IMG/VR virus record: IMGVR_UViG_2703718817_000003
DNA from: a virus
Taxonomy: Duplodnaviria > Heunggongvirae > Uroviricota > Caudoviricetes
Strand: one strand, 5' to 3'
Length of the DNA: 64,000 nt
Under the pieces are notes generated by a model. The model ran no database searches and was not told the origin of the DNA. It was given only the letters and a program-made list of their open reading frames with translations. The translations under genes and the position numbers were made by a program. Of the stretch, positions 1-47,217 are shown piece by piece. Each line of letters opens with the position of its first letter. Positions within the stretch are counted from its first letter, which is position 1.

Positions 1-1
1 C

Positions 2-208
2 CGCAACCTGGTCAACGCTTACCGGATACCCACTGATACGCATGAGTTTTTGACGCCAGAGGGGGTATTGTCGCGTCGTACTATTGTGGCCTTATCTCCC
101 TTCATGAATGCCTTTACCCTGATGATGTCGGAGGCTGAACACCGAGGAAAACGCTGGTATCACCCAAGGATGGGACAATTCCAGGTGATCGGTTGGGGAG
201 GCGAGTGA
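2..208 (+). CDS. 3' fragment of a Rha-family regulator/antirepressor-like gene, truncated by the window edge; ends at TGA 206-208
   Basis: Frame-2 translation RNLVNAYRIPTDTHEFLTPEG...KRWYHPRMGQFQ parallels the C-terminal part of the 41191-42132 protein (CRNLVNAYRIPTDTHEFLTPDG...KRWYHPRMGLFQ); DNA roughly 80-90% identical by eye. Confidence 0.5.
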   Translation, partial: RNLVNAYRIPTDTHEFLTPEGVLSRRTIVALSPFMNAFTLMMSEAEHRGKRWYHPRMGQFQVIGWGGE

Positions 209-405
209 TGGACATCATGCAGGCGGTAAAAAAAATCAGGGAAGGACAGGCTGAAGTGTGCCGCCGTAAAGCATGGAGTGTTGGTATATGGATCTGGCCT
301 GATAATTGCTCTACTACCGGATGGTTTTGTATTAATGGATGCCAGATCCGGGAAGTCGATTTATCGATGGCGGATGCAGTCGGTAATGATTGGATCGTAA
401 CTTGA
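208..405 (+). CDS. Small DUF2829-like (Tad2-family-like) domain protein; ATG 208 overlaps the upstream stop (TGATG)
   Basis: ORF track 193-405 (TTG) with in-frame ATG at 208; product MDIMQAVKKIREGQAEVCRRKAWSVGIWIWPDN...NDWIVT resembles the C-terminal domain of the 41191-42132 protein and the DUF2829 pattern (K-x-RR-x-W ... DW-I-V). Confidence 0.4.
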   Translation: MDIMQAVKKIREGQAEVCRRKAWSVGIWIWPDNCSTTGWFCINGCQIREVDLSMADAVGNDWIVT

Positions 406-436
406 AGTGTGATGCCCCGGCCTGGCCGGGGCTTTT

Positions 437-922
437 TCATGCCTCATTAGTTGAGGTTGCTGCGTCTCCGACAGGTAACAGAGCTGTATTGCGTGGTTCG
501 CCAGCAGGCCAGCGATAGCCAGACACTCTTGATGTTGGGAATGCGCGAATATTAACAGCATCCCCCTGGTTCCCACCCAAGACAAGCAGATCGCCATTGG
601 CGCGGCGTCCGACAACAAAGCCTACATGCCCACCGCCTGCGCGAGTAAATACAACGATACATCCGTATGCCGGTGTATCTAATTTCTCGCCCCAATCCAG
701 ATAGGATTTTGCCGACTCAAATCTTGTTGAGCGGATACCTACACGTTCCAGCATTGCACCAACAAATGCAGCGCACCACGGCGTTTCGTCGTCTTTAATT
801 CCGCTGCGCTTAATATCCCGCCAGAACTGGACGATCTCAGGATTGTGTTTCGCTCCTTTTATTTCGGTGACTCCAATATTTTTACGGGCCTCAATAAGCC
901 AACGAGGTTCATTGTTTGCCAT
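437..922 (-). CDS. CHAP/NlpC-P60-like cysteine peptidase domain protein (TIGR02594-like)
   Basis: 161 aa ORF; Cys in TPWCAAFVGAM and His in GGGHVGFVVG are spaced as in CHAP-type peptidoglycan amidases. Confidence 0.45.
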   Translation of the reverse strand: MANNEPRWLIEARKNIGVTEIKGAKHNPEIVQFWRDIKRSGIKDDETPWCAAFVGAMLERVGIRSTRFESAKSYLDWGEKLDTPAYGCIVVFTRAGGGHVGFVVGRRANGDLLVLGGNQGDAVNIRAFPTSRVSGYRWPAGEPRNTALLPVGDAATSTNEA

Positions 923-1059: not shown

Positions 1060-4000
1060 TTGAGGGGGCTTCCTTTGGACAAAATAATTGATTCAATTAG
1101 CCAGGCCACCAGCATTGGGGCGCTGATTGAAATTGTTAGTCGGTTGCATAAACCGCGAGCTGTAGTGACCTTTGGCGTTAAGAAAGTCGATGGCGTCAGT
1201 ATTCAGAAAACACGCCGGGCAGCAAACAACGCCGCAGTAAATCTTCTTAATTCCCTTCCGCCTGGCTTCGATGGGGCGAAATTAACTGACGAACAGCGTC
1301 AGATTCTTGCCGGGTATACCGGTGAAGGCGGCCTGACAGATGGTGAGGGCAGCCAATACGAATACTATACGCCACAGTTTATGGCAGAAGGTATATGGGA
1401 TCTCTTCGGCGACTACGGTATTGATAGCGGTCACGTACTGGAACCGTCAGCAGGCACAGGTATTTTCCAGGAGACAAAACGGCAGGGCATGATAATGACC
1501 AGCGCCGAACTGTCTCCGATCTCCGGTCGAATAAACCAGCTTTTGCACCCGGAAGATGATGTGAATATCGGGGCGTTTGAGGCGCTGGCGGCGAAAGATG
1601 CAATGTATGACCACGCAGTTGGTAACGTACCGTTTGGCGAAGGGCGTTCCGGCGTCGCCGGGCTTGATCCGGCATATGCAAACGAGAAGAACGTTGGCAA
1701 TTATTTTGTGCTGCGCACGATCGACAAGGTTAAGCCTGGTGGACTAATTGTATTGGTGGTGCCGAATGGCATGACCGATGGTACGAAATACAAAAAATTG
1801 CGCGATAAAGTCAGCCGTAAAGCGGAATTTTTGGGCGCGCATCGTATGCCTTCTGGTACGTTCAGCGAATCCGGTACAGATACCGTGGTGGACGTATGGG
1901 TATTGCGTAAACACCCGGAAACCTTCCTGGAGATGATCCCCGACACGGATGATGCAACGCTCAAATCGGCAAACGTCCTTTGGGATACCTTCCTCAAAGG
2001 GAAATGGTTTACAACCGAAGGGAAGCGATTTGTTTACGGCGACATGGAACGCACCAGCTTCCGCAATACCCTGGTGGTGAAAAAGGACGGTCGTGTATCC
2101 AATGAGTCGATGAAAACCGCGTTATCACGCCGCTTTGAAAGCCGTATTAATTGGGATTTGCTCGGAGTAACTACCCAGGCATGGCAGGGCGCAAAAGTAG
2201 GGGATAAGCGTCTTGTAGGCGGTATCTGGCATGAGTTTGATGGCCTGAAATGGGTTAAGGACACGACAACCAAATCCTCCGCGCTTGATGTAAGTCGATA
2301 TGGTGTTTCGACGTTTGGCGATCTGCAGATCGCGTTCCAGTCAACAAACGGGATTCTGGCTTTGTCATGGGACCAGATATCGGCGATCGCGTCCGACTAT
2401 CCATCGGTTGTCAGTGATGAAGTGGCAGCAATGATTCGCTTTGCTGGCAAACAGCGAGAAAAAGACAGGGAGCGCGTTATGCGCGGTGCACTGATAGGTC
2501 AGTTGATCAACAAGGCACTTGATTTGCGTAACCTGGGGGTGAACGTTGATGACAAACTGGCAGATGCATCCCGCCTGGCGGCAGCAGAAGTTGCGAAGTA
2601 TGGACCACCGCACGCGATTAAGCTGAATGGGCTTGCAGAAGCTGGAGCTAAAAACTGGATGACGTTCACTGGCAATGTGAAACAGGATGGTTCCACTTCT
2701 GACCTTCTGGCAGGGCGACTTGATGTAACGGATGGTGCTGCCGGTATTGACTTTACACGTCCGGAACAAGTGATAGCACATCTTTTCAGTGATGTAGCCC
2801 TTTATCCTATAACGCTGGGCGACTTTCGTGAGGCGTTTGCTGGTGAACTGCCAGAGGACGACGACGCGGCCCTTGAATACCTGGCGAAATTTGATGATAT
2901 CGCTATTGATGGGTATGGCTGCCTGCTGCCGATGGACCGCGCCACCAGCGGCGATATTGCAACCAAAACAACATTGCTGGTGGGCTGGCGTGATGCGTCA
3001 ACAGGTGAACAGAAAGCGAACTTTGAGCGTCAGTTGGCGAAAATCGAAGAGAAACGCATTTTCACGCCACTAAATAAAGTCACCGTTAATCTGAACGCCC
3101 GCTGGCTGGATCGCCGCTTGATAAAAGAGTTCCTGGCAGAGCAGGGCTATGACGAGTTTAAGTACACTGAACCTGATCTGAAGGTCGTCGATGGCATTCT
3201 GGTATCTCCGGACGATTACGAAGGTAAGGACGGGGTATTTACCGGCTATCAGCTACGAACCGTAAACGGCAAAAACGGGAATGAGTTCAAGAAGGCCAAC
3301 AATAAAGACGGCTTCCTGAACCAGTTAGAAAACTACCTGAACGGTGTTAAACCGCGTGGGCAGAACGCTAACGAGTACCTGGATAAAATTGCTCAACTGG
3401 AAGTTAGCTTTAACGACTGGTTACGCACCCACCCGCAGGCGGATCAGATAGCCCGTGACTATAACGACGCATTCAATGGCTTCATTCCGTTCACGCACTC
3501 TAACGCACCGCTTGGCCTGGAAGGGATTAGTGGAAAGCGCATTCCTCTGACTTATCAGAATGAAGAAGTTCGTCGCTTGTCAGAAGATGGGCGCGGCATC
3601 ATGGGATTTGGTACCGGGCTGGGTAAAACCACGACCGCGCTTGCGCTTGAGGCGTATAACTTCGAAACAGGTCGTACTAAACGCACGTGTATTGTTGTTC
3701 CGAAGGCGGTTTATCAGAACTGGTATCACGAGGCACAGAGCTTCTACAGTGCTGATGCCTTCGCCAATATGATGTTTATCGGTCTGGATGAAGTTCGTGA
3801 TGAAGACGGCAATATTCTGACCGCGCCGGTGCTTGATGAAAATGGCGAACCCCGCCTCGACAGTAACGGGCAGCCTCTTACCAGAAATGTTGTGAAAGAG
3901 TCCGCCAGCGCCGTTATCGTTCAGCGCATGAACATGATCCCGTCGTCAAATTGGCGAACGGTCATCATGACAAAAGAACAATTCGCGTCTATCCCGCTAC

Positions 4001-7000
4001 GAGAAAAAACCATCGAGGAGAACTCACAGCAAGCTGTCTTTAATGCTGTGGAAATGGGGCGTCTTGACCTGGCGTCTGGTAAACACCGTGATGCGCAGAA
4101 GAAGAACAAGATTAAGGATCAGGCCGCGAATACCGGTACAACGAAGAAGCAGAATATCCCGTACTTTGAGGATATGAACTTCGATAGCGTGATTGCCGAC
4201 GAGGGGCATAACTACCGCAACTCCTTTAATGCCGGGCGTGAAGCGGGACAACTGGCATATTTGCCTAACCCGGCAGTATCCAAGATGGCCCGCGACATGG
4301 CTGTAAAAGCTGCGTACATGATGAAACGCAACAACGGGCGTGGTGTAGTCATGCTGACGGCAACTCCGCTGGTGAACAGTCCGATTGATGCCTTCAACAT
4401 GCTGTCTACTGTCATTCCGCAGGAAGAGTGGATGCGCATGGGCATTATTACGCCGGATGATTTCGTTCGCGTGTTCGGCAAAACAGCCACAGTTCAGGTT
4501 CAGAAAATTTCCGGTGAGGTGGAAGAGAAGCAGGGGCTGGTGGGCTTCCAGAACCTTGATGGTCTGCGTGGTATTTTCCACCGTTGGACCACTCTGAAGA
4601 CTGCCGCAGATGTCGGAGCGACGGTTAAAATTCCCGACATCATCGAGAACACCTTGCAGATCCCGATGACAGGGGAGCAGGAGGCTGCTTATGAAGAGCT
4701 TCGTAAGCGTGCTCAGGAGTTAAGTCGCAATGATGAGCTGACAGTCGATGAAAACGGGCATATCACTAACGACAAACCGGATGATTTCATCTTCTCCATC
4801 ATCCGCGACATGGATAAGGTTGCTATAGATCCGGATCTGTATGCCAGTGCGATTACATTCCAGTTCCCCGTTGAGCTTGCAGACAAGGTAAAAGCTATTG
4901 CGGATGCCCTGCCAAAAGTCGCAGGCGGTAAAGTGGCAGATGATGCAGACGAGGCCGAAGAAGACGGCGCTGGTGGACTGGTCAGTACGCGTACCAGCAA
5001 GGTAGTGAAGACCACCTTTAGTGAACATCCGGCGCATGTTGAAATACGCGCCAGCATTGAACTGGAAGCTGAAATACTGAAGGCCATTGCTGCCGCCGGG
5101 ATTGATCTGCAGCAGGTATCACACCCCATCCCGCCGAAGTATGCCGCGCTGATCGAAAACCTTCGTGAAGGTTTGAAGAACGGTAAACAAATTGTCTTCA
5201 TTGATGAAAAAGCCCAGCACCAGAAGCTGCGCCGTATTATCGCCAGTGCACTGCAAATGCCGGAGCAGGAGATAGGCATTATCAATGCGACGACCGTTAG
5301 CCAGGCTGGCGGCATCAAGCTGAAGAAGGTGAATAAGCCGACTGAACCTACTCCGAATAAAAACGGTGAATACAAAGAAGGGGCATGGGAAACCTACTAC
5401 AGCAAACTTGCCCAATATGAGGATTATCTCTCAGCTAAAAATGATGCTGGCCTTGAGGGTATGGAAGGCATTGCCGCCGACTATAACGAAGGGCGCACGC
5501 GCATCATTATCTGTAACAAGAAGGCTGAAGTAGGTATTAACCTGCATATCGGGACAACCGATATCCACCACCTGACACTACCCTGGACACCAGCCAGTAT
5601 CGACCAACGAAATGGGCGCGGTGCGCGCGTAGGTTCACCGCAAGAGAAGGTCAATGTTCACTACTATTGTGGCAAAGGCACATTCGACGACTTCCGTCTG
5701 GATACGCTGAAACGTAAGAAAGACTGGATCAAGATGGTGATGACCTCCGACATGTCAGAGATCGCCAATGGTGATGCGGATGATGCTGATGAACGCGCCA
5801 TTATGCTGGCGGCAAACCCGGAAGAACGCCGCGCAATCATGGCTCGCCAGGCGCAAGAGCGCGAAGAACGTCTGAAACTGAAAGCACAGCGCGAGGCCAA
5901 CAATGCTCTCGATATCTACCTGAAAGCGGCAAACGCCGCTGGAAAAGATATCGGCATGATGGAGACAGAACTGAAAAGCGCGATGGAACAGATAGAGTAT
6001 TACCAGCGAAATCTTGACGACCTGATAAAAGCGGGTACGAACAGGAATGGGCAAAAATTCGCGCTTGAGCAGTTGAGTAGCTACAGAAAACGTGCGCGGG
6101 TGCTGCGGTTTGCGATCACCAGGGCAAAAGACGCGGATACCATAATGAAACGCTCTCGTGGTGATGTGGAGCGAGCTATTAAGTCTGGTGTGCTGGATAT
6201 CAGTATCGATGTTATTCAGAACCCACAGGAATATATGCGCACTGACAAGAATATCCTGTTGCATAAAGGTAGTTATTACCGTGCAGTCATTGATGATCGC
6301 GAAACAACAGCGATTGTCCGGGTGGAAAAAATTGACGGTGAAAAAGCACAATACCTCTGCCGTATCGCCTGGCTGGATAGAGCAAGTCGTTACGCTCGAT
6401 CACCGGGGTCAATCGTTACATTGCCGTTTGACTCTGTGATTGAAGCGGTAACTTTTGAAGAGGGGGTAGCTGAATCGCGCGCAACGGCTGCGCGTGGTGT
6501 TCAGTGCCACCAGCTATCAACAATACTTACTCGCGATCAGTTCTATGATGCTATTCGCAATGGGGTAATGAATGTTATTGCTGGTAAACCTGGTAATGCA
6601 TGGGGCGGTGGGTCAGCTATTAAATACTGGGCATATCGCACAGATGATGGTCAGATCGCGCTGTCATCGGCCTATGATGGCGTGATAGGCCAAAAAATCG
6701 GGCGAGCATCGGATATAGCACCTGAACGATGGATATATCCAGATGGCAACGATGAGGCGCTGAAGCGTGAAGTGGCAAAAATACAAGCCAGTGATAACCC
6801 GCTGAATATCGTGGACGGCGAGGGATTCCTCCAGGCATTGTATGGGTATGATTACATCCAGGGAATGCAGGCATGGGGCGCACAGGCAACGATGGATGAT
6901 GTTGTCCAGGAGTTCGAAAACTGGATGGCTGGGCGTGGTCTGTCAGGTCGTTCGCTTAATAAAGTCACTTCTGAAGATATTCTTAGCTTGTTCCGCAAAC

Positions 7001-7911
7001 CGTCCGGAGAAGGTCTGGAATCATTCTGGAGGACCGTGCTGGCATACCGTTTATTCAAGGGCAGAATGAAAGCCTTTAGCAATATCGATGATATTGAACG
7101 GATGTTTAATCAGGTCAAGATCGCGAAAATTAAGACGAAGATCGAAAAAACACGTTCTGCGCTGGTGGCCTGGCGCGATGCATTGTTTGAGCAATATAAA
7201 TCACTCAGTGATGCAGATGGATGGGCGGCATTGGAACAGTTGGCGAATAATGGGGTAGATGGAGCGAAACTCGCCATAGTCCAGGCTGATAACCCCCTGG
7301 AATCACCGGCAGCACAGTGGATTAAGGTGGGGGCTGTCATCAATGCATTTGATGAAAAACACATTAGTAAGGACGATTTTGCTGATGCTGTTTCTGTTAA
7401 TCGCCTGGTAGAAATGGCTACCCGCCGCGCCCGTGAGTTGAAAGACGGTGACTATGTGAATGAGTTGCCGGATGCGCTCAAATCAGCAACGTGGCAAGAC
7501 TATGTATCGCTGAAAAACGGCGGGGCCACCGAATCAGAGATCGCGGAAAGGCTTGAACAGGCTGAAAGCAAAAGAGAAGAGCAGGCGGCAGTGGCTGAAG
7601 CCAGAGCTGATGAAGCGGCGAATGATGACTATATCATTGTGGTTAATGATAAGCCGATTCGCGCTAAGGCGCGTGTTCGCGGGCGCTGGTGGAGTGTCAG
7701 CGAGGACGTCGGTGCGGTTTATCTCATTGCCGACCAACCTGGTTCCTCGACAATACGGAACGCCAAAGACGCGATTAAGAAGATTGGCGGGCGTTTCTGG
7801 AATTTTGAAGCAAACCCGGTTGCTGATGTGAACTTTGACCGTCCGGCATGGATGGTATCTACGCGTTACTCGGTAGATGAACTGCGTAAAATAATCGCCG
7901 ATGCGGCCTAA
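1060..7911 (+). CDS. darB: DarB-like giant antirestriction protein: N-terminal N6-adenine methyltransferase domain plus SNF2-type helicase domains
   Basis: 2283 aa ORF. AdoMet motif LEPSAGTGIF and catalytic-like NVPFGE near the N-terminus; Walker A GFGTGLGKTTTA, DEGH box (IADEGHNYRN) and helicase motif VI QRNGRGARVGS. Size and architecture match P1 DarB. Start (TTG at 1060) is uncertain. Confidence 0.8.
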   Translation: MRGLPLDKIIDSISQATSIGALIEIVSRLHKPRAVVTFGVKKVDGVSIQKTRRAANNAAVNLLNSLPPGFDGAKLTDEQRQILAGYTGEGGLTDGEGSQYEYYTPQFMAEGIWDLFGDYGIDSGHVLEPSAGTGIFQETKRQGMIMTSAELSPISGRINQLLHPEDDVNIGAFEALAAKDAMYDHAVGNVPFGEGRSGVAGLDPAYANEKNVGNYFVLRTIDKVKPGGLIVLVVPNGMTDGTKYKKLRDKVSRKAEFLGAHRMPSGTFSESGTDTVVDVWVLRKHPETFLEMIPDTDDATLKSANVLWDTFLKGKWFTTEGKRFVYGDMERTSFRNTLVVKKDGRVSNESMKTALSRRFESRINWDLLGVTTQAWQGAKVGDKRLVGGIWHEFDGLKWVKDTTTKSSALDVSRYGVSTFGDLQIAFQSTNGILALSWDQISAIASDYPSVVSDEVAAMIRFAGKQREKDRERVMRGALIGQLINKALDLRNLGVNVDDKLADASRLAAAEVAKYGPPHAIKLNGLAEAGAKNWMTFTGNVKQDGSTSDLLAGRLDVTDGAAGIDFTRPEQVIAHLFSDVALYPITLGDFREAFAGELPEDDDAALEYLAKFDDIAIDGYGCLLPMDRATSGDIATKTTLLVGWRDASTGEQKANFERQLAKIEEKRIFTPLNKVTVNLNARWLDRRLIKEFLAEQGYDEFKYTEPDLKVVDGILVSPDDYEGKDGVFTGYQLRTVNGKNGNEFKKANNKDGFLNQLENYLNGVKPRGQNANEYLDKIAQLEVSFNDWLRTHPQADQIARDYNDAFNGFIPFTHSNAPLGLEGISGKRIPLTYQNEEVRRLSEDGRGIMGFGTGLGKTTTALALEAYNFETGRTKRTCIVVPKAVYQNWYHEAQSFYSADAFANMMFIGLDEVRDEDGNILTAPVLDENGEPRLDSNGQPLTRNVVKESASAVIVQRMNMIPSSNWRTVIMTKEQFASIPLREKTIEENSQQAVFNAVEMGRLDLASGKHRDAQKKNKIKDQAANTGTTKKQNIPYFEDMNFDSVIADEGHNYRNSFNAGREAGQLAYLPNPAVSKMARDMAVKAAYMMKRNNGRGVVMLTATPLVNSPIDAFNMLSTVIPQEEWMRMGIITPDDFVRVFGKTATVQVQKISGEVEEKQGLVGFQNLDGLRGIFHRWTTLKTAADVGATVKIPDIIENTLQIPMTGEQEAAYEELRKRAQELSRNDELTVDENGHITNDKPDDFIFSIIRDMDKVAIDPDLYASAITFQFPVELADKVKAIADALPKVAGGKVADDADEAEEDGAGGLVSTRTSKVVKTTFSEHPAHVEIRASIELEAEILKAIAAAGIDLQQVSHPIPPKYAALIENLREGLKNGKQIVFIDEKAQHQKLRRIIASALQMPEQEIGIINATTVSQAGGIKLKKVNKPTEPTPNKNGEYKEGAWETYYSKLAQYEDYLSAKNDAGLEGMEGIAADYNEGRTRIIICNKKAEVGINLHIGTTDIHHLTLPWTPASIDQRNGRGARVGSPQEKVNVHYYCGKGTFDDFRLDTLKRKKDWIKMVMTSDMSEIANGDADDADERAIMLAANPEERRAIMARQAQEREERLKLKAQREANNALDIYLKAANAAGKDIGMMETELKSAMEQIEYYQRNLDDLIKAGTNRNGQKFALEQLSSYRKRARVLRFAITRAKDADTIMKRSRGDVERAIKSGVLDISIDVIQNPQEYMRTDKNILLHKGSYYRAVIDDRETTAIVRVEKIDGEKAQYLCRIAWLDRASRYARSPGSIVTLPFDSVIEAVTFEEGVAESRATAARGVQCHQLSTILTRDQFYDAIRNGVMNVIAGKPGNAWGGGSAIKYWAYRTDDGQIALSSAYDGVIGQKIGRASDIAPERWIYPDGNDEALKREVAKIQASDNPLNIVDGEGFLQALYGYDYIQGMQAWGAQATMDDVVQEFENWMAGRGLSGRSLNKVTSEDILSLFRKPSGEGLESFWRTVLAYRLFKGRMKAFSNIDDIERMFNQVKIAKIKTKIEKTRSALVAWRDALFEQYKSLSDADGWAALEQLANNGVDGAKLAIVQADNPLESPAAQWIKVGAVINAFDEKHISKDDFADAVSVNRLVEMATRRARELKDGDYVNELPDALKSATWQDYVSLKNGGATESEIAERLEQAESKREEQAAVAEARADEAANDDYIIVVNDKPIRAKARVRGRWWSVSEDVGAVYLIADQPGSSTIRNAKDAIKKIGGRFWNFEANPVADVNFDRPAWMVSTRYSVDELRKIIADAA

Positions 7912-12466: not shown

Positions 12467-12543
12467 GATGGTGTAGCTCAGTAGGATAGAGCAGCAGCCT
12501 TCTAAGCTGTCGGTCGGTGGTTCGAATCCACCCACCATCGCCA
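12467..12543 (+). tRNA. tRNA-Arg (anticodon UCU)
   Basis: Manual cloverleaf: acceptor GATGGTG/CACCATC, D-arm GCTC...GAGC, anticodon loop CTTCTAA, T-arm GGTGG-TTCGAAT-CCACC, encoded CCA. Confidence 0.8.
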
Positions 12544-12548
12544 ATTTA

Positions 12549-12635
12549 GGGGAGTTAGTCCGTAGGGGTAGCGGGGTAGACTGTAAATCTACTGTCATTG
12601 CGACTCGGATGGTTCGACTCCATCACTCCCCACCA
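12549..12635 (+). tRNA. tRNA-Tyr (anticodon GUA), class II with long variable arm; D-arm atypical
   Basis: Acceptor GGGGAGT/ACTCCCC, anticodon arm GTAGA-CTGTAAA-TCTAC, variable arm TGTCATTGCGACTCG, T-arm GATGG-TTCGACT-CCATC, CCA encoded. Confidence 0.6.
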
Positions 12636-12639
12636 AATT

Positions 12640-12715
12640 GCCGGTTTAGCTCAGTTGGTAGAGCAGTCGCTTTGTAAGCGAATGGTCAGCGGTTCGATCC
12701 CGTTAACCGGCACCA
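12640..12715 (+). tRNA. tRNA-Thr (anticodon UGU)
   Basis: Acceptor GCCGGTT/AACCGGC, D-arm GCTC-AGTTGGTA-GAGC, anticodon loop TTTGTAA, T-loop TTCGATC, CCA encoded. Confidence 0.85.
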
Positions 12716-12903
12716 ACACAACAGGTAAGGGTATTTTGCGACATCGGAGATCGCCGAGCTTGGCAGAGGGTTCGAATCCCTACGAAGTACCCTTGCCGTT
12801 GTGATGAATGCACAGGCTGATGTGCCGCAACTACAGTAGTGCGCGCTTTGCGGGGCTTGCTACAACCCTGTGTCGGAGTTCAGCACCGACCATCACAATC
12901 ACT

Positions 12904-12990
12904 GGAGAGTAGGGAGCATGGTGCTCAAGCGGTCTTGAAAACCGTCCCATTGCGCAAGCGATGATGGTTCGATTCCATTACTCTCCGCCA
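12904..12990 (+). tRNA. tRNA-Ser-like (anticodon UGA), class II; D-arm noncanonical
   Basis: Acceptor GGAGAGT/ACTCTCC plus GCCA; anticodon arm GCGGT-CTTGAAA-ACCGT; long variable region; T-arm GATGG-TTCGATT-CCATT. Confidence 0.55.
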
Positions 12991-13419
12991 GCGCAACGTT
13001 AAGAGTATTTGGCTAATTAAGCGAATGCCGGAAGCAGAACCGGATCACCAAATGCGTACAGGCGTCATCGCCGCCCAGTCAGCCAAATGCTCTTACCATT
13101 GCGGTGAATGCGGCTAAGCGCACGCGGAACAGTTAAAACAGTAAAGGTGGTCTTTTTACTGGCGTAACGAGCATCCATAAGTGATCCGGCGTTAATTGTT
13201 AACTGGTTAACGTCACCGGGAGGCACCCGGCACCGCAACCTAACAGCAATGGCGTTTTGTCTTAAAAGGTGGCTGCAAGTGATGGATTTTTGGGCGTTTG
13301 CCGATAAAAACCCGGAGTGGACATTATTGTTTCTGCTGGTGGTTGCATACGGGGTAGAGCAAGCGGCAAAAGCCTTACGCGGTTCTGGCAAAAAGCGTAA
13401 GCGTAATTAACAGTAATCT

Positions 13420-13495
13420 GGCCCTTTAGCTCAGTGGTTAGAGCGGGCGACTCATAATCGCACGGTCACCGGTTCAAGTCCGGTAGGGGCCACCA
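13420..13495 (+). tRNA. tRNA-Ile2-like (anticodon CAU, lysidine type) or tRNA-Met
   Basis: GGCCCTTTAGCTCAGTGGTTAGAGC...CTCATAA...GGTTCAAGTCCGG...AGGGGCCACCA; closely resembles enterobacterial ileX from memory. Confidence 0.75.
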
Positions 13496-40662: not shown

Positions 40663-40763
40663 TAAAACACACAGTTGCGCCCTGGCATTATCGTGGGGTA
40701 TATTTCTACGGCACCTTAGAAAAACGGGTGCCGGGATTGGAACCCCGGATAATGTCAAAGGCG

Positions 40764-40796
40764 ACACAGACGCCGAAAGCGTCTTTTTTTGTGTCA
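40764..40796 (+). terminator. Rho-independent terminator
   Basis: GACACAGACGC-CGAAA-GCGTCTTTTTTTGTGTC. Confidence 0.6.
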
Positions 40797-40975
40797 TGCC
40801 ATCGCGCAGCCATACGTAGCGTTTAGCTCAGAGATCAATGGTAGTGCTGGCTGGGCTGCCGAAAGGCAGGCCGGTTCCCTTTGACGCCGGTAGTTCCAAC
40901 CCAGTCAGTGCTACCGCCATTGAGATTGGAACCTCACGCGGTAGCTCCTTAACTTAGTCAAAGGAGGCTGCCAAT

Positions 40976-41191
40976 ATGGCTACTATCCCCACCCCAACTC
41001 ATTCTGAATTTATCTGGCGTTTCTATTCCTGCCAAAAACACCTCTATATCTGCGTCATGGCTGCTACCGAAGCAGAAGCGCGCTCATACCTTCCCGAAGA
41101 ACCCTGCATTTTTGCTGCTCGCTTCACTCTTGATGCGATGGAGATCCTCAATTACTGGAATCTGCCGATGAACTGCGTGGAGGTGCACTGA
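40976..41191 (+). CDS. hypothetical small protein
   Basis: 71 aa ORF with AAAGGAGG Shine-Dalgarno; coupled to the next gene. Confidence 0.45.
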   Translation: MATIPTPTHSEFIWRFYSCQKHLYICVMAATEAEARSYLPEEPCIFAARFTLDAMEILNYWNLPMNCVEVH

Positions 41192-42132
41192 TGAATCTGT
41201 CCATCTCTCAAAAAGCGACAATGACCAGTATTGAAATCGCGGAACTGGTAGGTAAGCGTCATGATAATGTGAAGCGTACCATTGAAGTATTAACTAAAGG
41301 TGGTGTCATTCAATTTCCTCAAATTGAGGAAATTGAAAATAAACAATCAGTTGGCCCTCGTCGATTTTCCAAGGCTTACATCTTTGAAGGCGAACAAGGC
41401 AAGCGTGACAGTATCATTGTCGTTGCGCAGCTCTCTCCGGAATTCACCGCCCGGCTGGTGGACCGCTGGCGCGAACTGGAGAATGCCAGGGGACCGTTAA
41501 AATCAAAAGCCGAAATCCTGGCTGAAATGGCGCAAATGCATCTTGAGCATGAACGCCGGATCAACGCTGTTAATGCCCAGGTAGCCGAAGTATCGGCACA
41601 AGTGTCCAAAGTCGCTGAAACCGTCGAGCAGATCAAGAAAGGCAACATACCAGAAGGTTACATTGGCTATCGCCAGTTAGCGGCGAAATGCGGCCTGACT
41701 GAAGCCAAATGCCGCAACCTGGTCAACGCTTACCGGATCCCCACAGATACGCATGAGTTTTTGACTCCCGACGGTTTGCTTGCGCGACGCTCAATTGTGG
41801 CCCTGGCCCCCTTCCGGAAAGCCTTTAAGCAGGTGATGTCGGAGGCAGAACCACGTAACAAACGCTGGTATCATCCCAGGATGGGGCTATTTCAGGCCAT
41901 TCACCATCCTGTGCCTGAAAGTCCAAAGGCAAACCTGTCGTTGCATACCGCCAGAGAGAAGATTAAAACAGGGTATGCAACCGTATGCCGTCGAGCATCC
42001 TGGCCTGAAAGTGTCTGGGTATGGCCCGAAAGAGGCTCACGGAAAAACTGGCGCACCATTCGCGACGGCAAGATCTGTGCGATTGATTTACAGCCAGAAG
42101 ATGTAGCAGCGACCGACTGGATTGTTAGTTAA
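41191..42132 (+). CDS. Rha-family phage regulatory protein (antirepressor-like) fused to a C-terminal DUF2829-like domain
   Basis: 313 aa; N-terminal TSIEIAELVGKRHDNVKRTIEVL matches the Rha signature; central coiled coil; C-terminal ...VCRRASWPESVWVWPE...ATDWIVS. Confidence 0.6.
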   Translation: MNLSISQKATMTSIEIAELVGKRHDNVKRTIEVLTKGGVIQFPQIEEIENKQSVGPRRFSKAYIFEGEQGKRDSIIVVAQLSPEFTARLVDRWRELENARGPLKSKAEILAEMAQMHLEHERRINAVNAQVAEVSAQVSKVAETVEQIKKGNIPEGYIGYRQLAAKCGLTEAKCRNLVNAYRIPTDTHEFLTPDGLLARRSIVALAPFRKAFKQVMSEAEPRNKRWYHPRMGLFQAIHHPVPESPKANLSLHTAREKIKTGYATVCRRASWPESVWVWPERGSRKNWRTIRDGKICAIDLQPEDVAATDWIVS

Positions 42133-42170
42133 TAGATTTGCCCCGGTCATGCCGGGGCTTTAACTACTAA

Positions 42171-46986: not shown

Positions 46987-47187
46987 GTGTTTGCAAGGAC
47001 ATGAATAGTACACTATTATGATGGTGAAGGAATGGTACATGTTGAACCAAACCTTCGAGGATGCAGCAGACTGAAGAAATTCAGACATCCCGCAACCAGC
47101 TATCATAACAGGTCAAACCAGTTGTGATACTTGGTCAAGGCAAAGTCCGGTAATGGCGTTCTGAATACCAGAAAATAATTTCTGGCG

Positions 47188-47217
47188 AAGCCCACCTTAA
47201 GGTGGGCTTTGTTATTT
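47188..47217. terminator. Bidirectional Rho-independent terminator
   Basis: AAGCCCACC-TTAA-GGTGGGCTT with T-rich tracts on both sides, between convergent genes. Confidence 0.6.

What the first reader, a model, noticed from the sequence alone, without database searches (positions are those of the whole stretch)
2..405. Rha-DUF2829 paralogs: fused at 41191-42132, split into two coupled ORFs at the window start
The first 190 bp is a diverged copy of the 3' part of the Rha-like gene at 41191-42132. In the upstream copy the Rha reading frame stops at 206-208 and the DUF2829-like domain restarts in another frame at ATG 208 (TGATG), whereas the downstream copy is one continuous ORF. This is either domain fission/fusion or a frameshifted pseudogene.
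Basis: seen in the sequence. Interest (0 to 1): 0.45.

Follow-up and report, generated by a model that had tools for sequence, protein, structure and literature searches.

The report
Split and fused antirepressor–Tad2-like gene pair
A D6-like phage-plasmid carries two antisense-RNA-controlled "immunity" operons that encode the same two protein modules, a Rha-type putative antirepressor and a tiny Tad2-fold protein, as two coupled genes in one operon and as one fused gene in the other. This is a stable gene fusion/fission pair, not a fresh frameshift.

Summary
Window 1-190 matches 41712-41901 at 149/190 bases (shuffles reach at most 79). The 65-aa ORF 208-405 is 37% identical (E 2e-16) to the last 65 residues of the 313-aa ORF 41191-42132, and TGA/ATG overlap at 206-210.

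The window is a D6-like P1-family phage-plasmid with two complete immI-type operons (C4 antisense RNA, icd, Rha/Roi-type "antirepressor", small domain).

The split form is not a recent frameshift:
- D6, about 110 plasmids and 38 of 39 other contigs keep the same GGAGG-N6-ATG / TGATG junction.
- The Rha core ends at the same "IGW" C-terminus as stand-alone homologues in unrelated phages.
- Distant homologues of the small protein are solo genes placed directly behind a C4 RNA whose loop pairs with their ribosome-binding site.

The fused domain is under purifying selection (dN/dS 0.12). The split ORF evolves near-neutrally (0.72; 21 nonsynonymous to 6 synonymous variants), so it is either drifting or diversifying.

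Fusion in the second operon is probably the derived state. Biochemical function is untested.

The parts
2..208 (+). 3' end (68 codons plus TGA) of the module-A Rha/Roi-type putative antirepressor gene. The full gene is 708 nt (235 aa) in pEC361_3 and D6 orf18; its 5' part lies upstream of the window.
   Evidence: The C-terminal half has dN/dS 0.08. The '..FQVIGWGGE*' ending is shared with unfused homologues.
197..201 (+). Shine-Dalgarno GGAGG for the 65-aa ORF, 6 nt before the ATG and embedded in the last codons of the Rha gene.
   Evidence: Sequence. Invariant in all 39 type-A copies examined; only the next base varies C/T.
206..210 (+). TGATG stop/start overlap (termination-reinitiation coupling). 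The same overlap joins icd to the Rha gene at 41189-41193.
208..405 (+). 65-aa ORF (D6 orf17 homologue, phrog_7385): a divergent Tad2/AcrIIA7 (DUF2829)-fold protein made as a separate polypeptide.
414..437 (+). Intrinsic terminator (8 G-C pairs, 3-nt loop, T5) that ends operon A. It lies between the small ORF and the convergent TIGR02594/CHAP hydrolase gene (437-922, minus strand).
40711..40789 (+). isrK-like leader RNA element of module B. It occupies the slot held by the c4-a1b1 element in module A.
   Evidence: RF01394, 62.7 bits. The same element is found in D6.
40834..40921 (+). C4 antisense RNA of module B.
   Evidence: RF01695, 77.1 bits.
40957..40964 (+). b2-type target GTCAAAGG overlapping the icd-B ribosome-binding site, complementary to C4-B loop nt 45-52.
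   Evidence: D6 carries a compensatory variant (GCAAAAGG / CCTTTTGC).
40976..41191 (+). icd-like gene of module B (71 aa).
   Evidence: NF033153, 49.4 bits against cutoff 25.
41191..42132 (+). Fused gene (313 aa; D6 orf82 homologue): Rha N-terminal domain, conserved core, an 11-residue Pro-rich linker (41902-41934) and the Tad2-like domain (41935-42129).
   Evidence: phrog_63 matched end to end. The fused small domain has dN/dS 0.12. The ORF is intact in most other copies.
42140..42161 (+). G+C-rich hairpin homologous to the module-A terminator, followed by only TTT.
   Evidence: It was not called by the scan because the T-run is short.

Best explanation
Positions 2-405 are the distal end of one of two C4-antisense-RNA-gated immI-type operons of a D6-like P1-family phage-plasmid.

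**Operon layouts**
- Operon A: leader with a1/b1, C4 RNA, icd, Rha/Roi-type putative antirepressor (235 aa), a 65-aa Tad2-fold protein, terminator. Each cistron is joined to the next by a TGATG overlap.
- Operon B (40711-42161) has the same layout, but the last two modules form one 313-aa polypeptide joined by a Pro-rich linker.

**What is shown**
- Both forms are fixed in the lineage.
- The split Rha gene has a natural C-terminus and is under constraint.
- The small module is an autonomous gene family. In other phage-plasmids it is the only gene behind a C4 RNA whose loop pairs with its ribosome-binding site.

**What is inferred**
- This is a Rosetta-stone type gene fusion/fission pair. The fusion in operon B is most likely the derived state.
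- When C4 is present (lysogen), it masks the ribosome-binding site of the first cistron and nothing is made.
- When C4 is absent or titrated (fresh infection or induction), serial termination-reinitiation yields Icd, the Rha core and the small protein in linked amounts.
- The small protein works together with the Rha core as its ligand-, RNA- or protein-binding partner, non-covalently in A and covalently in B.
- Whether its target is the C1-type repressor, an immune signalling nucleotide (as for Tad2) or an RNA (as for AcrIIA7) is open.
For: **Identity of the element.** 92.8% identity to phage D6 and 98.1% to pEC361_3.

**Two full modules.** C4 RNA above the Rfam threshold in both, icd in both, and paralogous Rha genes at 66% amino-acid identity.

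**Fixation of the split form.** 110 plasmids are annotated the same way. The ORF and junction are intact in 22/23 and 16/16 further copies.

**Natural C-terminus.** Klebsiella phage P12620-1 and an Stx2 phage encode 235-236-aa homologues that end ..IGW.. with no small ORF after them.

**Solo small genes.** In L006 and L007 they lie 44-52 nt after a C4 RNA and are followed by a terminator-like hairpin.

**C4 targeting.** The C4 loop is complementary to a b2 target at -9 to -23 from the first start codon in all seven modules, with compensatory changes between modules.

**Selection.** Fused domain dN/dS 0.12 and Rha core C-half 0.07-0.08.

**Fold.**
- Pfam Tad2-like hits in 6/7 members, matched end to end for the window copy and nearly so for P0005; best 23.9 bits.
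- The P0005 model has the a1-b1-b2-a2-b3-b4-a3-b5 order described for Tad2.
- An independent model of the window protein gave the same two chains at ranks 2 and 6.

**Operon end.** Terminator directly after the ORF.
Against: - The split 65-aa ORF evolves near-neutrally within D6-like elements: dN/dS 0.72 and 21 nonsynonymous to 6 synonymous variants, against 19:47 and 9:37 in its neighbours (p 2e-5 and 1e-6). Two variants hit family-invariant columns, so present-day function of this copy is not demonstrated.
- No expression, interaction or activity data exist.
- 'Antirepressor' for the Rha-type protein rests on its position behind icd and on annotation. P1 Ant is an unrelated ANT/KilAC protein.
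- No family member reaches the Pfam Tad2-like cutoff. HMMER against PDB sequences and Foldseek found no Tad2.
- The models have only moderate confidence (pLDDT 70 and 61).
- The direction of the event (fusion or fission) rests on parsimony from three outgroup sequences and two solo lineages. The Rha core is recombinant between the modules (dS 0.2 to saturated).
Confidence: 0.7

Rival explanations
1. The small ORF at 208-405 is a decaying relic. After the operon was duplicated, the fused copy kept the function, and the split-off 65-aa ORF is no longer under selection. It is effectively a pseudogene that has not yet been broken.
For: - dN/dS is 0.72 and the nonsynonymous:synonymous count is 21:6, close to the roughly 3.3:1 expected without selection. 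Both flanking genes differ significantly.
- Singleton variants hit invariant family columns (G13E, R19C).
- Frameshifted or truncated variants exist (L036, P0002, P0003, P0007).
- The ORF contains an A8 run (228-235).
Against: - The ORF, start codon, SD and TGATG are intact in 38 of 39 copies.
- The family motif (CRR, W23, W28, P31, D61-W62) is retained despite saturated synonymous divergence from copy B. The copy was therefore constrained for most of its history.
- Population diversity is low (pS 0.058), so near-neutrality rests on 27 variants.
- Recurrent multi-state changes at codons 29, 34, 45 and 57 fit diversifying selection equally well.
Confidence: 0.25
2. The direction is reversed. 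The fused gene is ancestral and operon A arose by fission: a stop codon, SD and start codon were created at the domain boundary, or the tail was imported by recombination from an unfused Rha gene.
For: - The Rha core is a recombination mosaic between the two modules (dS 0.22-0.41 in patches and saturated elsewhere), so a tail swap is possible.
- tblastn extends the match of solo protein P0005 into the linker of the fused copies (residues 4-94). This could mean the solo genes derive from a fused ancestor by deletion.
Against: - The split copy shares the IGW C-terminus with unfused homologues from unrelated phages, while the fused copy has lost it.
- Both components exist independently elsewhere.
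- Fission would need a stop, an SD and an ATG to arise together.
- The resemblance between the linker and the P0005 leader is weak.
Confidence: 0.2
3. The small domain is a genuine Tad2-type sponge. It sequesters TIR/Thoeris or CBASS signalling nucleotides and has nothing to do with antirepression. It merely uses the immI operon as an early promoter that is silent in the lysogen.
For: - The fold matches ModTad2 and AcrIIA7, with Pfam Tad2-like hits just below threshold.
- Tad2 proteins are short phage sponges (10.1101/2023.05.01.538930).
- Elevated dN/dS in copy A fits an arms race.
- A DarB-like anti-restriction gene lies next door (1060-7911).
- The solo form shows that it acts without Rha.
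Against: - No sequence-level match to any solved Tad2.
- The D6-type domain lacks helix a2.
- Ligand-contact residues could not be compared.
- Covalent fusion to a Rha-type regulator under purifying selection suggests a joint function.
- A protein of the same fold, AcrIIA7, binds tracrRNA rather than a nucleotide signal (PMC13133391), so the fold does not fix the ligand.
Confidence: 0.3
4. The split copy still makes a fused protein, by programmed -1 ribosomal frameshifting or transcriptional slippage near the stop codon.
For: In the window and a few relatives, the frame of the small ORF stays open for 23 codons upstream of the ATG.
Against: - In the majority D6-type sequences, a TGA lies two codons upstream of the ATG in that frame, leaving no overlap window.
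- There is no slippery heptamer at the junction.
- A strong SD and an ATG are conserved instead.
Confidence: 0.02

Closest known systems
Phage D6 orf18 / orf17 and orf83 / orf82 (MF356679), with the same genes in D6-like plasmid prophages such as pYU39_89
   Same: These are the same genes in the same order at 85-93% identity. The second c4-icd region has already been noted in the literature (PMC6799933).
   Different: orf17 is annotated only as hypothetical and orf82 only as a putative antirepressor. The homology between orf17 and the orf82 C-terminus, the Tad2-like fold and the solo C4-linked relatives were not found in the papers searched. The D6 genome paper itself could not be read.
Phage P1 immI operon (c4 - icd - ant1/ant2)
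   Same: - C4 antisense RNA with a/b loops that pair with targets at the icd ribosome-binding site.
- icd as the first cistron, translationally coupled to the downstream gene.
- In P1 the output is two polypeptides (Ant1 and Ant2) that act as a complex.
   Different: P1 Ant is an ANT/KilAC-domain protein with no detectable similarity to the Rha-type protein or to the small domain. D6-like elements carry two such operons with different C4 loop/target sequences.
Tad2 (DUF2829, PF11195) sponges and AcrIIA7
   Different: - Below the Pfam cutoff.
- 65 aa and lacking helix a2 in the D6 forms.
- Fused or coupled to a Rha-type regulator and placed under C4 antisense control.
- Tetramer formation and ligand binding are untested.
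Rha / Roi family phage regulators (HK97 and HK022 Roi; PF09669)
   Same: An N-terminal Phage_pRha domain and a conserved central core, 50-65% identical to Roi-like proteins of lambdoid and Stx phages.
   Different: Those homologues end at ..IGW.. or diverge after about residue 146, and they carry no Tad2-like module. Here the gene sits behind icd in an immI-type operon.
Gifsy-1 isrK - orf45 - anrP locus
   Same: An IsrK-type leader RNA upstream (Rfam hit in module B) and a small upstream ORF whose stop overlaps the start of an antirepressor-like gene and couples its translation (PMC4825925).
   Different: IsrK activates translation in trans, whereas C4 represses it. No Tad2-like module is described there, and the relationship of AnrP to these Rha proteins was not tested.

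Membership tests
Phage_pRha (PF09669) / Rha-Roi regulators | N-terminal Rha domain scoring above the Pfam gathering cutoff (29.9 bits) | tested here: met
   The fused 313-aa protein scores 37.5 bits over profile positions 1-91 of 91. The split copy (pEC361_3 protein) scores 29.4 bits, just under the cutoff, but is 66% identical to the fused one.
Tad2-like / DUF2829 (PF11195) | Sequence score above the Pfam gathering cutoff (25 bits) | tested here: not met
   17.3 bits for the window protein and 23.9 bits for the best member (P0005). 6 of 7 members match at E <= 1. The window protein and P0005 cover nearly the whole profile (1-72 and 2-71 of 73), but P0006 matches only profile positions 15-73.
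Tad2-like / DUF2829 (PF11195) | Tad2 fold: N-terminal helix followed by a five-stranded antiparallel sheet, with short helices in the b2-b3 and b4-b5 loops | tested here: met
   - The AF2 model of P0005 has H27-35, E41-44, E52-55, H57-60, E69-73, E76-80, H84-88, E92-95, matching the description.
- The window-protein model gives the same chains at ranks 2 and 6.
- Both are models of moderate confidence, and Foldseek found nothing.
Tad2-like / DUF2829 (PF11195) | Homotetramer that binds gcADPR, His-ADPR or cyclic nucleotides at protomer interfaces | not testable with these tools
   No multimer prediction or ligand assay is available. Contact residues could not be aligned because no solved Tad2 matched by sequence.
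P1-type immI operon | C4 antisense RNA upstream of the protein genes | tested here: met
   RF01695 scores 77.1 bits in module B (window) and 72.1 bits in module A (L002), against a gathering score of 45.
P1-type immI operon | C4 loops complementary to a/b targets, with b2 over the ribosome-binding site of the first cistron | tested here: met
   Targets of 7-11 nt lie at -9 to -23 from the start codon in all seven modules compared, with compensatory differences between modules.
P1-type immI operon | icd as first cistron | tested here: met
   NF033153 scores 49.4 bits against a cutoff of 25; alignment. This feature is not met in the solo loci L006 and L007, where the small gene takes that place.
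P1-type immI operon | ANT/KilAC-type antirepressor that inactivates the C1 repressor | tested here: not met
   P1 Ant1 matches PF03374 (E 1.2e-30). The D6-type proteins do not, and they show no similarity to Ant1. Activity against C1 is not testable here.
Frameshifted pseudogene | A reading frame broken relative to intact orthologues, no start signals of its own, and a break that is sporadic rather than fixed | tested here: not met
   The stop lies where unfused homologues end. SD plus ATG are conserved in 39/39 junctions and the ORF is intact in 38/39. The arrangement is shared by D6 and 110 plasmids.

The most novel reading that the evidence does not exclude
A divergent branch of the Tad2/AcrIIA7 fold is the cargo that C4 antisense RNAs gate in enterobacterial phage-plasmids. 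It occurs solo, translationally coupled to a Rha-type antirepressor, or covalently fused to one. Two readings follow:
- The immunity-region antisense RNA controls an anti-defence sponge, so that it is made only on infection or induction and never in the lysogen.
- The Tad2 fold has been co-opted as the repressor- or RNA-binding module of a two-part antirepressor.
Probability: 0.25. Interest if true: 0.65.

Novelty: new variant of a known kind. Interest (0 to 1): 0.4.

Why it matters
The pair gives a natural experiment: the same two modules are made as separate, stoichiometrically coupled subunits in one operon and as a single chain in the other, within one genome. This predicts a physical partnership between a Rha-type regulator and a Tad2-fold protein.

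It also links a fold known from immune-signal sponges and a tracrRNA-binding anti-CRISPR to the lysis-lysogeny switch region of P1-like phage-plasmids. It identifies a minimal "C4 RNA plus one small gene" cassette that could be tested directly.

If the small protein is an anti-defence factor, antisense gating would explain how a prophage avoids disarming its own host. If it is an antirepressor module, it would broaden the known uses of the Tad2 fold.

Tried and rejected
- **Simple frameshift with one indel.** Rejected, because the junction is remodelled and the arrangement is fixed.
- **Programmed frameshifting to make a fusion from the split copy.** Rejected, because an in-frame TGA lies two codons before the ATG in most copies.
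- **Homology of the D6-type proteins or the small domain to P1 Ant1.** None found.
- **Sequence links to solved structures.** HMMER with two profiles and with P0005 gave only noise.
Nothing significant.
- **Exhaustive HMMER of a three-sequence profile against 1.84 billion representatives.** Only 7 hits, so the family is very narrow and no bridge to bona fide DUF2829 proteins was obtained.
- **Word-indexed searches.** Only D6-like proteins plus P0005 and P0006.
- **Genome-contig scan.** No relatives.
- **Metagenome and IMG/VR scans.** Only D6-like A and B copies.
- **Search for solo forms.** tblastn of P0005 against phages and plasmids, and blastn of the solo locus, found no further solo copies. 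Only the C4 segment matched.
- **NCBIfam.** No model for the small protein.
- **The D6 genome paper.** Could not be retrieved.
- **Homology between the P0005 leader and the fusion linker.** Too weak to use.

Full report
**1. What the window is**

Bases 1-1060 are 92.8% identical to Escherichia phage D6 and 98.1% identical to E. coli plasmid pEC361_3. 111 plasmids of Escherichia, Salmonella and Shigella match, nearly all about 90 kb and non-mobilizable.

D6 is a P1-family plasmid prophage. In D6 and pEC361_3 the window start falls inside a 708-nt gene annotated as putative antirepressor or Rha family regulator (D6 orf18). An icd-like gene precedes it. A 198-nt hypothetical gene (orf17) follows it, then a convergent TIGR02594/CHAP hydrolase and a DarB-like gene.

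**2. Check of the observation**

- Window 1-190 aligns without gaps to 41712-41901 with 149/190 identities. Shuffled queries never exceeded 79 (alignment).
- The translated Rha-frame tail is 78% identical to residues 175-237 of the 313-aa ORF 41191-42132 (E 1e-35).
- The 65-aa ORF 208-405 is 37% identical, without gaps, to residues 249-313 (E 2e-16).
- TGA 206-208 overlaps ATG 208-210, and GGAGG lies at 197-201.
- The 313-aa protein passes the Pfam Rha cutoff.

So the description is correct. The alignment shows no single indel. Between the last shared codons (..FQ[VA]I) and the first shared codons of the small domain, the two copies are not alignable. One carries GWGGE-stop with the SD inside it, and the other carries the linker HHPVPESPKAN. 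Similarity resumes in the small domain and continues through the terminator hairpin.

**3. The paralogy is a whole operon**

Rfam finds a C4 antisense RNA upstream of both copies. Module B has an isrK-like element at 40711-40789 and C4 at 40834-40921. Module A, read in pEC361_3 and D6, has a c4-a1b1 element and C4. Each is followed by an icd-like gene (37% identical between modules) joined to the Rha gene by another TGATG.

A paper on D6-like plasmids had already noted a second c4-icd region (PMC6799933).

In every module compared, a 7-11-nt segment of a C4 loop is perfectly complementary to a target 9-23 nt upstream of the first start codon. The modules were P1, A of two elements, B of two elements and two solo loci. 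The sequences differ between modules with compensating changes on both sides. The two operons of one element therefore have different antisense specificities.

Divergence between A and B is mosaic. Synonymous divergence is 1.9 for icd and saturated for the small domain (50% nucleotide identity), but only 0.2-0.4 in two patches of the Rha core. This indicates recombination or gene conversion inside the core.

**4. Not a frameshift pseudogene**

- *The arrangement is fixed.* It is the same in D6, in 110 plasmids, in 22 of 23 copies from D6, pEC361_3, the window and IMG/VR, and in 16 of 16 metagenomic copies. The junction TGGGGAGG[C/T]GAGTGATGG is invariant.
- *The Rha core ends naturally.* Homologues of 235-236 aa in Klebsiella phage P12620-1 and an Stx2 phage end ..FQAIGWEEKHCEN and ..FQVIGWQR. 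No small ORF follows them. The split copy keeps this IGW ending, and the fused copy has lost it.
- *The split Rha gene is constrained.* dN/dS is 0.08 in its C-terminal half.
- *Read-through by frameshifting is excluded.* In most copies, a TGA in the small-ORF frame lies two codons before the ATG.

**5. The small module is an autonomous, C4-gated gene family**

The family is very narrow. A profile search of 1.84 billion representatives gave seven hits. Two are distant relatives: P0005 (96 aa, on a Raoultella plasmid and four other contigs) and P0006 (68 aa).

In both, the gene stands alone. The order is a c4-a1b1 element, a C4 RNA, a leader of 44-52 nt whose ribosome-binding-site region is complementary to the C4 loop, the small gene, then a terminator-like hairpin. 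Convergent spanin-like genes follow. No icd or Rha gene is present at these loci.

So each component exists on its own, the Rha core in other phages and the small gene in other phage-plasmids. Together with the IGW ending, this makes fusion in module B the more parsimonious direction. Fission cannot be excluded because the core is recombinant.

**6. What the small module is**

- *Pfam.* Tad2-like (DUF2829) matches 6 of 7 family members, over nearly the whole profile for the window copy and P0005. All stay below the cutoff (17.3 bits for the window copy, 23.9 for P0005, cutoff 25).

Proteins of this fold sequester Thoeris or CBASS signals (10.1101/2023.05.01.538930). In the case of AcrIIA7 they bind tracrRNA (PMC13133391). 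The fold alone does not tell the ligand.

**7. Selection**

| Region | dN/dS |
|---|---|
| Fused small domain (pS 0.37) | 0.12 |
| Fused-copy linker | 0.11 |
| Fused-copy Rha core, C-half | 0.07 |
| Split 65-aa ORF (pS 0.058) | 0.72 |
| Split-copy Rha core, C-half | 0.08 |
| TIGR02594 hydrolase next to the split copy | 0.06 |

The split 65-aa ORF has 21 nonsynonymous and 6 synonymous variants. The adjacent Rha half has 19:47 and the hydrolase 9:37 (Fisher p 2e-5 and 1e-6). A ratio of 21:6 is what neutrality predicts.

Yet the family motif has survived saturated synonymous divergence from copy B, and the start signals are invariant. Changes recur at codons 29, 34, 45 and 57. Either the split copy is now drifting, or it is under diversifying selection. 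These data cannot separate the two.

**8. Most likely mechanism**

*Shown:* the operon anatomy, the C4/target complementarity, the stop-start overlaps, the terminator at 414-437, and conservation of both forms.

*Inferred from established P1 biology (annotation):* C4 masks the first ribosome-binding site in the lysogen. When C4 is lacking, Icd, the Rha core and the small protein are made by serial reinitiation.

*Inferred from the fusion (Rosetta-stone logic):* the small protein and the Rha core act together, as two subunits in A and as one chain in B.

*Open:* whether the small module binds the C1-type repressor, an immune nucleotide or an RNA.

**9. Novelty**

The genes themselves are already in GenBank as D6 orf17, orf18 and orf82. 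Four points appear to be new as far as the searchable literature shows:
- the homology between orf17 and the orf82 C-terminus;
- the assignment of the small module to the Tad2/AcrIIA7 fold;
- the solo C4-gated relatives;
- the contrast in selection between the two copies.

I rate this a new variant of known kinds (immI operons, Rha regulators, the Tad2 fold) and of moderate interest.

Noticed in passing
window 228-235: An A8 homopolymer lies inside the 65-aa ORF (codons 7-9). Public variants with frameshifts or truncations of this ORF exist (L036, P0002, P0003, P0007). It is unclear whether these are sequencing errors, decay or slippage.
   Followed up: partly
window 208-405, codons 34 and 45 (also 29 and 57): Residues 34 and 45 change together across D6-like variants: C/C in the window type, Y/L in the D6 type and S/Y in the pEC361 type. 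Codons 29 and 57 are also multi-state. This may reflect a contact pair or selected sites.
   Followed up: partly
L050, L051, L052, L060 (IMG/VR); also L048, L053, L062, L084: A lineage of type-B copies has a frameshift inside the Rha part of the fused gene, yet keeps a 122-aa open frame that still ends in an intact small domain. This is a second, independent way of 'splitting' the gene.
   Followed up: partly
L012-L015 (protein P0016, 81 aa): An 81-aa remnant starts at Met235 of the fused protein (linker plus small domain). It sits next to a tyrosine integrase and IS elements on unrelated E. coli contigs, so the small domain also travels without its operon.
   Followed up: no
window 40834-40964, with L002 2144-2276: The two C4 RNAs of one element have different loop/target sequences (module A TCATGAGT/ACTCATGA, module B CCTTTGAC/GTCAAAGG). 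D6 differs again in both (TCGTAAGT, CCTTTTGC). The two immI operons look orthogonal and appear to diversify between strains.
   Followed up: yes
window 41281-41370 (fused protein residues 31-60) and the same region of the split copy: The segment after the first helix-turn-helix of the Rha domain is hypervariable. It is 27% identical between modules, and the N-terminal regions have dN/dS of 0.37-0.40 within each module. The adjacent EGEQGKRDSIIVVAQLSPEFTARLVDRWRELE block is nearly invariant.
   Followed up: partly
window 47025-47210: A strong Rfam match to sroH RNA (113 bits) lies on the plus strand of this phage-plasmid.
   Followed up: no
window 12467-13492: A cluster of four tRNA genes.
   Followed up: no
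window 1060-7911: A 2283-aa ORF homologous to P1 DarB (methyltransferase/helicase, defence against restriction) lies immediately downstream of the operon-A / hydrolase block.
   Followed up: no
L006 4323-4941 and L007 4587-5202 (minus strand): In the solo loci, the gene convergent with the small gene is a spanin pair (i-spanin with an embedded lipoprotein o-spanin). In D6-like elements that position holds a TIGR02594/CHAP hydrolase. In both cases lysis-related genes flank the end of the immI operon.
   Followed up: no
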